Below, piece by piece: positions 29,356 to 33,631 of a DNA stretch of 64,000 nt. Source of the stretch: an uncultured Gemmatimonadales bacterium (GTDB taxonomy: Bacteria > Gemmatimonadota > Gemmatimonadetes > Gemmatimonadales > GWC2-71-9); assembly GCA_963821525.1 (NCBI GenBank), contig CAWGED010000019.1, forward strand, positions 128,001 to 192,000, written 5' to 3'. The position numbers and the translations under genes were made by a program. Under the pieces are notes generated by a model. The model was not told where the DNA came from. It searched no databases and worked only from the letters and a program-made list of their open reading frames with translations. Numbering within the stretch: the stretch's first letter is position 1; every line of letters begins with the position of its first letter.

Positions 29356-30562
29356 GTGGATATTCAGACTCTGCAGACCGTCGCTCTGTTTGAAAAGTGC
29401 CGCCAGTTCACCAAAGCCCGAGAAATTCAGGCTGCCGGGCTCTATCCCTATTTCAAGCCGATTTCCGATTCCGAGGATACCTCGGTCGTCATCGAAGGCC
29501 AGAAGCGCATCATGCTGGGGTCGAACAACTACCTCGGCCTGACTCATCACCCCAAGGTTCTCGAAGCCGCCTCCCGAGCCCTTCATCGCTACGGATCGGG
29601 CTGCACCGGCAGCCGGTTCCTCAATGGCACCCTCGACCTGCACGGCCAGCTCGAGCGTGCCCTGGCCGACTTCCTCGGCAAGGAAGACTGCCTCGTCTTC
29701 TCGACCGGGTACTCGGCCAACCTCGGCCTCATTTCCGGGCTCATCGGCCGGGGTGAGGTGGTGTACCTGGACAAGCTGGACCACGCCTCGATTGTTGACG
29801 GGGCCAAGATGTCGTACGGCGATACCCTGCGCTTCACTCATGGAGATCTCCCGCGCTGGAGCGGATGATCGAGCGGACCAGGAACGGCCGCGGCGCCATG
29901 ATCATCGTGGACGGCGTGTATTCCATGGAAGGCGACATCGCCAACGTCCCGGAGCTGGTTCGCATCGCGAAGAAGTACGGTATCGCGCTGGCCTTCGATG
30001 ACGCCCATTCAATCGGCGTGCTGGGCCCCAACGGAGACGGCACCGCGGCCCATTTCGGGCTCGACCGACGAGGTGGATATCATCGCGGGGACCTTTTCCA
30101 AGTCTCTGGCGTCGATCGGCGGCTTCGTTGCCGGCGCCGAGAGCGTGATTCACTATCTCAAGCACCACAGCCGGCCCGCTCATCTTCACCGCTTCCCTGC
30201 CGCCGGCCAACACGGCCGGCGTGCTCGCGGCGCTCGAAGTGATCAAGAGCGAACCGGAGCGGCGCGAGAACCTCTGGGCCAACACCCGCCGGCTCCAGGA
30301 CGGCTTCCGGCAGCTCGGGTTCGACATCGGCGAAACCGAGACTCCGATCGTGCCGGTGCTGATCGGCCCGCTGGAGAAGACCTTCATCTTCTGGCGCAAG
30401 CTGTTCGACGCCGGGGTGTTCACCAACCCCGTGGCGCCGCCCGCGGTGCCGCCCTCGCAGTGCCGGCTTCGCACCAGCCTGATGGCGACTCACACGTTCG
30501 ACCAGATCGACTTCTGCCTGGAGCAGTTCGCCTGGATCGGACGCGAGCTGGGGGTCATCTGA
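29356..30562 (+). CDS. spt: Serine palmitoyltransferase-like alpha-oxoamine synthase (several frame breaks)
   Basis: [49 protein letters not shown]-lysine motif GTFSKS. Confidence 0.8.
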
Positions 30563-31703
30563 CCGCAGACGTTCAGGTCCGGCCGCGTTCAGGGCCGGGC
30601 CGATCTGGATCGCTTCATCGCACTGCCCTACGAACTCTACGCGCGGGACCCGCACTGGGTCCCGCCGTTGCGTATGGACGTGCGGAAACTGCTTGACCGC
30701 AAGAAGAATCCCTTCTTCGAGCACGCCGAGGCCGAGTATTTCCTGGCGGAGCGCGGTGGGAAGGTGGTGGGCCGGATCGCCGCCATCGCCAATCGGCTGC
30801 ACAACGAGACCCATCAGGACAGAGTCGGGTTCTTCGGCTTCTTCGAGTGCGAATACGATGAGGGAGCGATCCATGCTCTCTTCGCCGCCGCTACCGAATG
30901 GGTCCGGGCCCGAGGCTTCGACACCCTGCGGGGGCCGGCATCGTTTTCTGTGAATGACGAATGCGGCCTCCTGGTGGACGGCTACGACACTCCGCCCACC
31001 CTGATGATGCCGCACAATCCTCCCTGGTACCGGCGGTTAATCGAAGCGCGAAGGATTCAAGAAGGCCAAGGACCTGCTGGTGTACCGCGGCGGATCCGAG
31101 GCGTCGTATGTCCCGGTCCCCGAGCGGCTGGCGCGAGCGCACCGAGCTGATCCGGCAACGCCAGGGCGTGACCCTCCGGCCATTCAACATGGCCGATTTC
31201 AAGAACGAAGTAGAGAAGATCAAGGTTCTCTACAACCAGGCCTGGGAGAAGAATTGGGGCTTCGTCCCCATGACCGACAAAGAGCTGGACCACCTGGCCG
31301 ACCAATTCAAGCCGGTTGTCATACCCGAACTGGTCCCATTCGCCGAGCACAACGGGCAAGATCATCGGCTTCGGCCTCGTGCCTGCCCGATCTCAATGCG
31401 ATCTTTCGGCGACATCGATCCGGCCGGCTCTCGCCGGCGCTCCTGGCAGACCTCCTCCTGACCCTTCGCTTCAACCGGCTCCGCCGGCTCCGCATCCTCC
31501 TGCTGGGCATCGTGCCGGAATGGAGAGGCAAGGGCGTGGATGCGATGCTGTATCACTGGATCTGGACCAAGTCGAAGGAACGCGAGATCTACTGGGGTGA
31601 GGCGGGGTGGATCCTCGAGGACAACCCGGCCATGAACGCCGGTCTCGAGAAGATGGAATTCACCGTCTATAAGACCTACCGCATGTACGATCGACCGGTA
31701 TGA
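30559..31703 (+). CDS. GNAT-fold protein of the bacterial ceramide synthase (bCerS)/YghO family (frame breaks)
   Basis: [61 protein letters not shown]. Confidence 0.75.
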
Positions 31704-32698
31704 AGGCGCTGGTGACCGGGGCGACGGGGTTCGTCGGGAGTCACCTCGTCGAAGCCCTGGTTGGGAATGGGGATGAAGTCACCGCGCTGGTCCGCTCCCC
31801 CGGCAAAGCCAAACTCCTCACACAACTCGGGATTCGGCAGGTCCCCGGCGATCTGTACGACGCGGCCGCCCTGGCCAACGCGGTACGGGACCAGGACGTG
31901 GTCTACCACGTCGCCGGCGTGACCGCCGCGCGCAACGAGGCGGACTTCCTTCGCGCCAATCGAGACGGGACCCACAATCTCCTCGCTGCCGTACATTCAT
32001 CTCTTTCGGCGGAGCCCTCTCATCGCGGCGGTGAGCCGCCGAGATTCGTCCTCGTCTCCAGCATGGCGGCGGGCGGCGCTTCGGAGCGGGGGCGGCCGCT
32101 CAGGGGAGACGAACCTCCCCGTCCAGTGACCGCGTATGGCCGGAGCAAGCTCGCCGGCGAGGCTGTCGTTCGGGTTTCAGCGCTTCCATGGACCATCATT
32201 CGTCCGCCGATGGTCTATGGTCCGCGCGACACAGAGGTGTTCAAGGTCTTCAAGCTGGTTCGCAGTGGACTGACCCCGGTGTTCGGAGATGGGCGGCAGG
32301 AGCTTTCTGCGGTGACCGGCCCCGACCTAGCGCAGGCCTTGATCCTCGCCGCCAGCAGCGCCGCGACCGTGGGTAAGACCTACTACGCCTGTCACCCTGA
32401 GGTCTTTACCAGTGAGCAATTCGCCCATGCCGTTGCCGCGGCGATGCATCGCGAAGTGCGGGTGATCAAGCTGCCCAACTGGCTCGCCGTCGTTGCCCTC
32501 GGCGCGACCGGCGCCTGGGCCTGGGCTACTCACAAGCCCACCATTTTGACACCGGACAAGGCGCACGAGTTCTACCAGCCGGCCTGGACCGGAGATCCAG
32601 CCGCTCTGATGCGCGATACCGCGTGGAGGCCGGCCCAGAATCTGGCAATCGGGCTCGCGGGCGCGGCGCAGTGGTACCGGGACGCAGGATGGCTTTGA
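31700..32698 (+). CDS. NAD-dependent epimerase/dehydratase (extended SDR), candidate ceramide reductase
   Basis: TGATGFVG, YGRSK, RPPMVYGP; ATGA overlap with the GNAT gene. Confidence 0.8.
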   Translation: MKALVTGATGFVGSHLVEALVGNGDEVTALVRSPGKAKLLTQLGIRQVPGDLYDAAALANAVRDQDVVYHVAGVTAARNEADFLRANRDGTHNLLAAVHSSLSAEPSHRGGEPPRFVLVSSMAAGGASERGRPLRGDEPPRPVTAYGRSKLAGEAVVRVSALPWTIIRPPMVYGPRDTEVFKVFKLVRSGLTPVFGDGRQELSAVTGPDLAQALILAASSAATVGKTYYACHPEVFTSEQFAHAVAAAMHREVRVIKLPNWLAVVALGATGAWAWATHKPTILTPDKAHEFYQPAWTGDPAALMRDTAWRPAQNLAIGLAGAAQWYRDAGWL

Positions 32699-33631
32699 TG
32701 CAGGCAGAAGACGGGGCATCGCGTCCGTCCGGTCGAGTACCTGGTCGGCGGTTATCTCGTGATCACCAGCGTCCTGGCCTTGATCCGACTCGAGAATCAG
32801 CCGGCGTGTGCGTGGGTGCTCCTGGCCAATGCGCTCTACCTCCTGCTTATCGTGCTGTTCGTGCGGGCGGAACTGGGGGCGATCGGAAAGGGACTCCGCG
32901 AGATCTTCCCCTTGGTCCTGCTCACCTCCACCTATGGTGCGCTGGATCTCCTCAACAATTTCGGAGCTATCCCGACCCACGATCAGTGGGCCATGCATGC
33001 CGACCAGGTGTTGTTCGGCGGCCAGATCTCGCGGGAGTGGTGGCAGGCCCACCCCAGTCCGTTTCTCTCGGCCCTATTCCATGCGTCCTACTTCGCCTAC
33101 TACCCGATCGTTGCGTTACCCGTGCTGTACTTCCTGTTCACGGGTCGGATCGAAGCCTGCCGCCGCTCGGTCCTGTGGCTCACGGGGACCTTCCTCGGCT
33201 GCTATCTCCTGTTCCTTGCCGTTCCGGTAGCCGGACCGTACTACGATTTTCCGCGACCCGACCCCGTGATCATGGACAATCCAATGGCCAGGCTAGTCTA
33301 TGCGACACTTGCCCGGGGGAGTTCCTACGGCGCGGCGTTCCCGTCGTCTCACGTGGCAGCCGCACTCGTGGCTACGGCCGCCGGATTTCTCGGGGTCCGA
33401 TGGATCGGATGGGTACTGACGGTGCCGTCGATCCTTCTTTGTATCGGAGTGGTCTACTGCCAGATGCACTACGGAGTGGATGCCTTGGCCGGAGGAGCGG
33501 TTGCGCTGCTGGTTATCGGCTCAGGCTGGTGGGCGGAACGCGGCAGGGAGGGAAACGAATCGAGGACCGAGGCGAGGCGTCGCGCCTCACACTCGGTCCT
33601 CGATTCTCAAAACCTCAGTCCTCAGTCCTGA
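32689..33631 (+). CDS. PAP2-superfamily membrane phosphotransferase, Aur1/IPC-synthase-like (start approximate)
   Basis: Multi-TM; PVAGP, AFPSSH, HYGVD motifs. Confidence 0.75.

What the first reader, a model, noticed from the sequence alone, without database searches (positions are those of the whole stretch)
29356..33631. Four-gene sphingolipid operon: Spt, ceramide synthase-like GNAT, reductase and an IPC-synthase-like head-group enzyme
Seen: four co-oriented genes with overlapping stop/start codons; gene 1 has GTFSKS and [11 protein letters not shown]. Known: these match bacterial serine palmitoyltransferases rather than BioF/Kbl (usually ending GKA). The Caulobacter ceramide pathway uses Spt, a GNAT-fold bCerS and an SDR-type CerR. 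FPSxH plus HYxxD are the catalytic motifs of Aur1/IPC-synthase-like PAP2 enzymes. Inference: a complete ceramide pathway plus a eukaryote-style head-group transferase making a phosphosphingolipid, in a probable Gemmatimonadota organism for which I know of no characterised sphingolipids. No dedicated ACP gene is visible in the cluster.
Basis: partly seen in the sequence, partly recalled or inferred. Interest (0 to 1): 0.85.

Follow-up and report, generated by a model that had tools for sequence, protein, structure and literature searches.

The report
Ceramide operon with orphan head-group transferase
Four overlapping genes in an uncultured soil bacterium (Gemmatimonadales) likely make ceramide by the known bacterial route, and the fourth, a membrane protein with a predicted fold like yeast inositol-phosphoceramide synthase but outside the known bacterial family, likely caps it with a phosphate-linked head group; its relatives in gut Bacteroidales are candidates for a step for which I found no assigned gene.

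Summary
The operon is real. Nine one-base indels in the window are assembly errors. Gene 1 is Spt-like. Gene 2 is a full-length homologue of E. coli YghO/bCerS, and gene 3 is the best hit in this genome of CerR-position reductases. Gene 4 keeps the His-His-Asp triad, lacks the phosphatase Lys/Arg residues and is predicted to fold most like Aur1. It is not a member of the known bacterial IPC-synthase family (BT_1522/NF052609). Its nearest named relatives lie just after a CerR-like gene in Bacteroidales. All 112 of 201 sampled phylum genomes with gene 4 also have gene 2. Twelve of them lack Psd, while inositol-lipid genes accompany all 112 (two only as fragments). Best reading: a phospholipid:ceramide phosphotransferase (0.65), with PI the likeliest donor, then PG or PE. 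No lipid was measured. Aur1-like bacterial head-group transfer is already known from Bacteroides, and this scan has noted the same operon on other DNA several times.

The parts
29356..30562 (+). Gene 1: serine palmitoyltransferase-like alpha-oxoamine synthase (three assembly frameshifts near 29849, 30062, 30173)
   Evidence: Intact orthologue L022 (97-99% identical over the matched stretches): best NCBIfam NF047600 534 bits (cut-off 640) vs Kbl/BioF 378-389; best PDB hits are Spt 8guh/3a2b at 430 bits vs Kbl-type 256-304 and cysteate acyltransferase 253
30559..31703 (+). Gene 2: bCerS/YghO-family GNAT N-acyltransferase; probable CTG start overlapping the spt stop (five assembly frameshifts near 30585, 31048, 31138, 31360, 31378)
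   Evidence: 34% identity over 380 aa, E 5e-70, to E. coli YghO in the spt-acpR-aasR locus; PMC9386255 lists yghO with Caulobacter CC_1154; Pfam PF00583
31700..32698 (+). Gene 3: extended SDR (GxxGxxG, YxxxK), CerR-like reductase; intact; starts directly with the Rossmann motif
   Evidence: Top hit in this genome for 7 of 7 reductases taken from spt loci or the Bacteroidales SDR-PAP2 pair; 27-39% identity
32698..33631 (+). Gene 4: polytopic PAP2_3 (Aur1-fold) lipid phosphotransferase-like protein; PVAGP 33224-33238, PSSH 33341-33352, QMHYGVD 33461-33481 (one assembly frameshift near 32711)
   Evidence: PF14378; model pLDDT 91; best structural match Aur1 Z 18.3, rmsd 4.1, 260 aligned; no C1 Lys/Arg or C3 Arg

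Best explanation
The operon likely makes dihydroceramide with genes 1-3, and gene 4 likely transfers a phospho-head group from a glycerophospholipid, most probably phosphatidylinositol, onto the ceramide 1-hydroxyl. Steps: (a) Spt condenses serine with an acyl thioester, inferred to be acyl-CoA because no AcpR/AasR lies in the cluster and the closest references are Bacteroidota enzymes. (b) The GNAT N-acylates the long-chain base and (c) the signal-peptide-less SDR reduces the 3-keto group, both inferred from homology. (d) Gene 4, with its catalytic loops predicted on the periplasmic face of the inner membrane, forms a phospho-His intermediate, releases diacylglycerol and makes a phosphosphingolipid; this is inferred from fold, motifs and gene linkage. 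Donor odds given a transferase: PI about 45%, PG about 25%, PE about 25%, other about 5%. Shown here: gene order, homology, motif states, co-occurrence. Predicted: fold and topology. Not shown: any activity or lipid.
For: Genes 1-3. This genome's Kbl is a separate gene scoring over its cut-off. Gene 4 fold: Foldseek top two are Aur1 (E 4.5e-4, TM 0.60). VIA Z is 18.3 and 17.8 over 260-267 residues, vs LpxE 14.8 and B. subtilis PgpB 14.4 over about 165. Motifs: 120 of 120 close homologues and 132 of 150 distant representatives have PSxH plus HxxxD, and 0 of these 252 have the phosphatase C3 Arg. The two ordinary PAP2s of the same genome keep KxxxxxxRP and SR. Linkage: in 201 phylum genomes gene 4 (E<1e-40) occurs in 112 of 131 with gene 2 and in 0 of 70 without. 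It stays in the cluster when the order is rearranged (3 of 20 distant loci), and a GT4 glycosyltransferase takes its place in two genomes of family f8. Donor: this genome has a PIPS-like/MIPS pair about 38 kb upstream. Twelve gene-4 genomes lack Psd, 10 of them in family f6, where three genomes examined have only PgsA/Cls-like and PIPS-like CDP-alcohol transferases. G073 and G121 keep genes 1-3 but lack gene 4, PIPS and MIPS together. No BT_1522-family enzyme was found in 201 genomes.
Against: No lipid or enzyme data exist. Gene 1 stays below the NF047600 cut-off (534 vs 640), and the Spt-versus-BioF/Kbl split in my 18-row tree is weak (64/81). By sequence profile LpxE (E 0.018) and YodM (0.04) rank above Aur1 (1.6), none significant. 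Gene 4 does not match NF052609 and scores 16-24 bits against inositol-cluster PAP2s vs 123-135 against Bacteroidales cerR-linked PAP2s. The residue before the C3 His is Met or Phe; in trypanosome synthases Phe marks EPC/SM and Ser marks IPC (PMC11796370). MIPS (190 of 201) and PIPS (181 of 201) are near-universal in the phylum, so co-occurrence with them is weak evidence. G132 keeps PIPS/MIPS but lacks gene 4, and G165, G174 and G175 do likewise. No PgpA-type PIP phosphatase was found in this 81%-complete genome. PG is universal and cannot be excluded.
Confidence: 0.65

Rival explanations
1. Gene 4 is a lipid hydrolase (ceramide-1-phosphate or sphingoid-phosphate phosphatase, or a phospholipase-C-like recycler) serving the sphingolipid pathway.
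For: It has the same His-His-Asp triad as PAP2 phosphatases. The profile search of PDB ranks LpxE and YodM first, weakly. Databases label it 'phosphatase PAP2 family'.
Against: 0 of 252 homologues have the C3 Arg and only 1 of 119 close homologues has a K-x6-RP match. The whole-length fold is closest to Aur1. It is unlikely to be the housekeeping PIP phosphatase, because most f2 genomes have PIPS/MIPS without it.
Confidence: 0.2
2. In this organism gene 4 uses phosphatidylethanolamine and makes ethanolamine-phosphoceramide, as its Bacteroidales relatives may do (a sub-case of the transferase reading).
For: The nearest named relatives are SDR-PAP2 pairs in B. finegoldii and Prevotella (HHalign 99.8%, E 3e-28). 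Prevotella 299 also has a separate PAP2 beside its PIPS-like gene. Met/Phe sits at the signature position. This genome has PssA and Psd.
Against: Family f6 keeps gene 4 in 10 of 11 genomes with no Psd in any of 11, and no PssA or Pcs among the CDP-alcohol transferases of the three examined. G073 has Psd but lacks gene 4. PLD-family genes are present in f6, so a non-Psd route to PE (recalled from Xanthomonas) is not excluded.
Confidence: 0.16
3. Genes 1-3 make a ceramide analogue from another amino acid (sulfonolipid from cysteate, or 1-deoxyceramide from alanine).
For: Gene 1 is below the curated Spt cut-off. Spt-like enzymes can use alanine (PMC11334938).
Against: Spt structures score 430 bits vs 253 and 248 for the cysteate-type enzymes 28eh/7u7h (that 7u7h is Alistipes SulA is recalled). 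A 1-deoxy or sulfonate backbone has no 1-OH for gene 4 to modify.
Confidence: 0.1
4. The locus is a decaying pseudogene cluster in this genome.
For: There are nine frameshifts in the window.
Against: All nine are single-base indels missing from three same-genus genomes and from close contigs in four independent short-read runs. Unrelated genes of this assembly are split in the same way (lpxC; the complex III-like genes).
Confidence: 0.03

Closest known systems
Caulobacter / E. coli BL21 ceramide pathway: Spt (CC_1162), bCerS (CC_1154 = YghO), CerR (CC_1164), with AcpR and AasR
   Same: Homologues of all three core enzymes; gene 2 is 34% identical to YghO over its full length and gene 3 is the best hit of the E. 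coli reductase in this genome.
   Different: No AcpR, AasR or LptF2/G2 in the cluster. cerS is in one operon with spt, whereas PMC11324152 states that cerS always lies in a different operon. Spt is closer to the Bacteroidota type. A PAP2_3 gene is coupled to the core, where Caulobacter uses the kinase/phosphoglycerate route.
B. thetaiotaomicron BT_1522 phosphoinositol-dihydroceramide synthase (NCBIfam NF052609)
   Same: PAP2_3 family, His-His-Asp triad without phosphatase Arg/Lys, proposed phospholipid-to-ceramide transfer; the host also has PIPS and MIPS.
   Different: No match to NF052609 (0 of 201 genomes). Motifs are PVAGP/PSSH/QxHY instead of PAAPPW/PSLH/HHY. It is linked to the ceramide genes, not to the inositol cluster.
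Fungal Aur1 IPC synthase (PDB 9vj4, 9ivc)
   Same: Best structural match over nearly the whole predicted model (Z 18.3, 260 residues); same triad, catalytic loops predicted outside.
   Different: 14-15% identity, profile E 1.6. No Kei1-like partner in the operon. Met/Phe in place of His293.
Uncharacterised Bacteroidales SDR-PAP2 pair (rnr - SDR - PAP2 - dusB in B. finegoldii; also Prevotella 299, P. massiliensis)
   Same: Both genes hit window genes 3 and 4 as best matches in this genome, in the same order.
   Different: spt and cerS are elsewhere in those genomes; there is a 25-residue insertion in the catalytic loop; Ala at the signature position; no function found in the papers searched.

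Membership tests
Bacterial serine palmitoyltransferase | Ranks with Spt above BioF/Kbl/ALAS in curated models and solved structures | tested here: met
   NF047600 534 vs 378-389 bits; PDB Spt 430 vs at most 304 for non-Spt
Bacterial serine palmitoyltransferase | Reaches a curated Spt equivalog cut-off | tested here: not met
   534 < 640 (CFB), 412 < 500 (BetaP), 343 < 670 (AlphaP); the models are lineage-specific
Bacterial serine palmitoyltransferase | Falls in a supported Spt clade | tested here: inconclusive
   Groups with Spt references away from Kbl/BioF, support only 64/81, 18 rows
Bacterial serine palmitoyltransferase | Condenses L-serine with an acyl thioester | not testable with these tools
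   Needs an enzyme assay
bCerS (CC_1154/YghO) | Full-length homology to the family and linkage to spt | tested here: met
   34% over 380 aa, E 5e-70 to YghO; only homologue in this genome; adjacent to spt. The Caulobacter sequence itself was not obtained.
CerR (CC_1164) | Extended SDR that is the best genome hit of known spt-locus reductases | tested here: met
   Top hit for 7 of 7 reference reductases, but only 27-39% identity; references were assigned by locus position
CerR (CC_1164) | Reduces 3-keto-ceramide | not testable with these tools
   Needs an assay
BT_1522 PI-DHC synthase (NF052609) | Matches the family model | tested here: not met
   No NCBIfam hit at E 0.01; 0 of 201 phylum genomes at E 1e-10; positive controls score 316-343 bits
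BT_1522 PI-DHC synthase (NF052609) | Located in the PIPS/PgpA/MIPS cluster | tested here: not met
   PIPS-MIPS lie about 38 kb away
Aur1/IPT1-type lipid phosphotransferases (PF14378) | C2 His and C3 His-x3-Asp triad | tested here: met
   H218, H257, D261 invariant in 25 of 25 rows; 252 of 270 homologues by pattern
Aur1/IPT1-type lipid phosphotransferases (PF14378) | Aur1-like full-length membrane fold | tested here: met
   Predicted model: Z 18.3, rmsd 4.1, 260 aligned, 3.5 Z above LpxE
Aur1/IPT1-type lipid phosphotransferases (PF14378) | PI-specific transfer to ceramide | not testable with these tools
   Comparative evidence is mixed
PAP2 lipid phosphate phosphatases (PgpB, LpxE, YodM) | C1 K-x6-RP and C3 S-R-x5-H-x3-D (motif definitions recalled; the C3 Arg is visible in LpxE/YodM) | tested here: not met
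   Arg at His-6 in 0 of 252; PxxGP in place of RP; this genome's other PAP2s keep both motifs

The most novel reading that the evidence does not exclude
Gene 4 defines a second family of bacterial phosphosphingolipid synthases, unrelated by orthology to BT_1522 and coupled to ceramide reductase in two phyla. Its Bacteroidales members are the missing synthase of ethanolamine-phosphoceramide, the main gut Bacteroides sphingolipid. Its Gemmatimonadota members use inositol or glycerol head groups (some hosts have no standard route to PE), which makes abundant soil Gemmatimonadales an unrecognised source of phosphosphingolipids.
Probability: 0.35. Interest if true: 0.78.

Novelty: new variant of a known kind. 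Interest (0 to 1): 0.52.

Why it matters
It predicts phosphosphingolipids in a soil phylum for which my searches found none described. Gene 2 is present in 95 of 96 sampled genomes of this family, and lpxC is retained (39 of 41 relatives), so these lipids would sit beside LPS rather than replace it. More important, it names one uncharacterised gene family, downstream of a cerR-like gene in Bacteroidales, as a knock-out-testable candidate for the ethanolamine-phosphoceramide synthase that PMC8791184 could not find by homology. The single operon is also a compact four-gene route for heterologous reconstitution.

Tried and rejected
The primary bCerS/CerR paper (Stankeviciute 2022) was not held under two recalled ids, so whether its survey lists Gemmatimonadetes is unchecked. 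The Black Sea paper's supplement was too large to read and may list Gemmatimonadota among its 40 Spt-like phyla. Heaver's 8 readable supplements gave no hit for guessed locus tags BT_3073-3077, so I give no B. thetaiotaomicron tag. Cluster-member names for distant gene-4 homologues could not be looked up. A survey across Bacteroidales genomes was not possible: plasmid-collection loci give handles without relatives. The B. finegoldii protein search gave mostly unnamed hits and no B. fragilis label. Single-sequence PDB searches with genes 2 and 4 found nothing significant. NF052560 was a wrong guess for the BT_1522 model. Two PAP2-SDR fusion proteins (P0335, P0355) were rejected as strong evidence: their SDR hits another SDR of this genome slightly better than gene 3. 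The PAP2 tree left the backbone unresolved. No promoter or terminator signal above shuffles. The ESM Atlas returned only generic PAP2_3 clusters.
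Full report
Observation. The four genes, their overlaps and the quoted motifs are in the sequence. Genes 1, 2 and 4 are broken by nine single-base indels. Three same-genus genomes lack all nine, and so do close contigs in 4 of 4 short-read soil or rhizosphere runs where they cover the place. I therefore treated them as assembly errors and worked with the intact orthologue in L022. Named homologues are Gemmatimonadales/Gemmatimonadota MAG proteins.

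Conservation. Of 80 loci retrieved with a gene-4 alignment from genome contigs (the best 80 of 595 confirmed; the scan covered 28 of 64 parts), 70 show Spt-GNAT-SDR-PAP2 in order and 10 are cut by contig ends. Of 20 more distant or paralogous loci picked by their gene-2 hit, 8 keep gene 4 with the three core genes, three of them in the order SDR-Spt-GNAT-PAP2. In one sample of 201 phylum genomes, gene 2 (E<=1e-20) was found in 131, including 95 of 96 of this family and 5 of 38 of family f2. Gene 4 matched in 116 genomes. I dropped four weak hits (E about 1e-12), leaving 112, all among the 131 and none among the other 70. Kin are not independent, and only 12 candidates per genome were scored. 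Two f8 genomes carry a GT4 glycosyltransferase right after the core, and Rubrobacter has an LTA-synthase-family gene there. The fourth slot therefore behaves like a head-group slot.

Genes 1-3. Gene 1 scores best against the Bacteroidota Spt model (534 bits, below its cut-off of 640; BioF/Kbl models 378-389) and against solved Spt 8guh/3a2b (430 bits; Kbl-type 256-304; cysteate acyltransferase 253). The genome's Kbl is another gene. My tree separates Spt-like from Kbl/BioF rows only weakly (64/81), and GTLSK occurs in BioF too. Gene 2 is 34% identical over 380 residues to E. coli YghO, which lies beside spt, acpR and aasR. PMC9386255 (passages read) lists yghO with Caulobacter CC_1154. Gene 3 is the top hit in this genome for all 7 reference reductases tried, at 27-39% identity. 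No close AcpR or AasR homologue was found (genome 81% complete). That fits acyl-CoA use as described for Bacteroidetes Spt (PMC11324152, first ninth of the text read).

Gene 4 anatomy. It is a PF14378 protein with invariant PVxGP, PSSH and QxHxxxD. The AlphaFold model (pLDDT 91) matches Aur1 best: Foldseek E 4.5e-4, TM 0.60; VIA Z 18.3, rmsd 4.1 over 260 residues, against LpxE 14.8, B. subtilis PgpB 14.4 and SMSr 11.7. The Aur1 triad H255/H294/D298 and its ping-pong mechanism are from PMC13133130 (passages). That paper also says the triad is shared with phosphatases, so the triad alone does not decide. The discriminating residues do: of 270 homologues examined, 252 matched both patterns and none has Arg six residues before the C3 His (the pattern required a Tyr four before the His, so 10 rows with C2 only and 8 without C2 were not counted). 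Two ordinary PAP2s in the same genome keep K-x6-RP and SR. Lys/Arg density alternates (0.19-0.27 vs 0.00-0.11) and places both catalytic histidines on the periplasmic side. Against this reading, a sequence-profile search of PDB ranks LpxE and YodM marginally above Aur1, with nothing significant.

It is not the known bacterial IPC synthase. NCBIfam models that family (NF052609). Inositol-cluster PAP2s of Spirosoma and Hymenobacter score 316-343 bits on it, and the Spirosoma one hits Aur1 at E 3e-18. Gene 4 does not match the model, and 0 of 201 phylum genomes do. The only hits of gene 4 in the annotated plasmid collection were 3 Bacteroidales records. In B. finegoldii and Prevotella 299 the PAP2 directly follows an SDR whose best hit in this genome is gene 3. 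The gene-4 profile scores these PAP2s at 123-135 bits and the inositol-cluster ones at 16-24 (HHalign E 3e-28 vs 1.5e-6). Prevotella 299 carries both kinds. That the Bacteroidales SDR is the orthologue of B. fragilis CerR (BF9343_4240; bioRxiv 2023.05.23.541633, passages) is inferred, not shown. PMC8791184 found no EPC synthase by homology and saw residual IPC in the BT1522 mutant. PMC10056535 reports PE-ceramide as the most abundant sphingolipid in four Bacteroides species (passages).

Which donor? This genome has a PIPS-like gene (165.5 bits, cut-off 170) followed by MIPS about 38 kb upstream, plus PssA/Psd and PgsA-like genes. Among the 112 gene-4 genomes, 12 lack Psd, 10 of them in family f6, which includes single-contig assemblies. 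Three f6 genomes examined have only three CDP-alcohol transferases each, two PgsA/Cls-like and one PIPS-like. The apparent inositol gaps among gene-4 genomes resolve as contig breaks or a frameshift (G183, G147), a divergent full-length copy (G135) or a PIPS fragment at a contig end (G062, where MIPS stays unfound). G073 (99% complete) and G121 (95%) keep genes 1-3 but lack gene 4, PIPS and MIPS; that is two cases, picked after the fact, and four other genomes lack gene 4 while keeping MIPS. This favours PI or PG over PE within Gemmatimonadota. Against it, the residue next to the catalytic His is Met or Phe, the state that marks EPC/SM synthases in trypanosomes (PMC11796370, passage), although that is a distant family and Aur1 has His there. 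PLD-family genes in f6 leave a non-Psd PE route open.

Novelty. Searches for Gemmatimonad plus sphingolipid terms (25 of 87 listings seen) and for bacterial PAP2-type ceramide head-group enzymes showed no paper on this operon or this subfamily. The library lacks most subscription papers, including the primary bCerS/CerR paper. PMC11334938 (passages; supplement unreadable) already extends Spt-like genes to 40 phyla. PMC11087976 (first quarter read) places Caulobacter CerR in the periplasm; gene 3 has no N-terminal extension before its Rossmann motif, which fits a cytoplasmic enzyme. Earlier notes of this scan describe the same operon in other Gemmatimonadota genomes, several with the same Bacteroides candidate. 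I had reached that link before reading them, and they are not independent support.

Verdict. Real, conserved and most likely a ceramide-plus-phospho-head-group operon: a new variant of a known kind, with one uncharacterised enzyme subfamily that makes an open question testable. Interest 0.52.

Noticed in passing
G000:C19:117101-119094 (L173:7102-9095, - strand; outside the window): PIPS-like CDP-alcohol transferase overlapping MIPS. MIPS is in 190 of 201 and PIPS in 181 of 201 sampled Gemmatimonadota genomes, which predicts inositol phospholipids as a phylum-wide trait; no PgpA-type PIP phosphatase was found in this genome.
   Followed up: partly
family f6 genomes (G084, G099, G106, G110, G124, G156, G173, G186, G197, G216, G220): No phosphatidylserine decarboxylase in 11 of 11 genomes, and no PssA in the three examined: a Gram-negative lineage predicted to lack standard PE synthesis.
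   Followed up: partly
L070:6503-8687 and L075:7084-8334: In two f8 genomes a GT4 glycosyltransferase (in L070 followed by an LPG-synthase-type membrane protein) follows SDR-spt-GNAT: a candidate glycosphingolipid variant.
   Followed up: partly
L176:5704-11296 (Rubrobacter plasmid); L177:5775-10301 (Streptomyces plasmid): Same spt-cerS-cerR order in Actinomycetota, followed by an LTA-synthase-family gene or a condensation-domain gene.
   Followed up: no
L050, L213, P0335, P0355: A paralogous gene-4 subgroup (TQNH motif) sits between two SDR genes or is fused to an SDR.
   Followed up: partly
L036, L040, L043: Family f3 loci with spt-SDR-PAP2 but no GNAT in the cluster; a weaker GNAT homologue lies elsewhere in G030.
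   Followed up: no
window 27373-29196 (-): M6-family metalloprotease divergent from spt (Pfam PF05547, TIGR03296).
   Followed up: no
window 33646-36577: Plastocyanin-like copper protein (33646-34134, -) convergent with gene 4, then a conserved unknown ORF (34125-34979), an ECF-sigma-like gene (35059-35571) and a zinc-finger anti-sigma-like gene (to 36577); the latter labels are by eye.
   Followed up: no
window about 36700-42500 (-) and 23000-27300 (-): Frameshifted alternative-complex-III-like respiratory operon; an arsenic cluster (ArsR, ArsM-like methyltransferase, ArsC-like, aquaporin) and SoxY/SoxZ-like genes. Labels are by eye from the ORF list.
   Followed up: no
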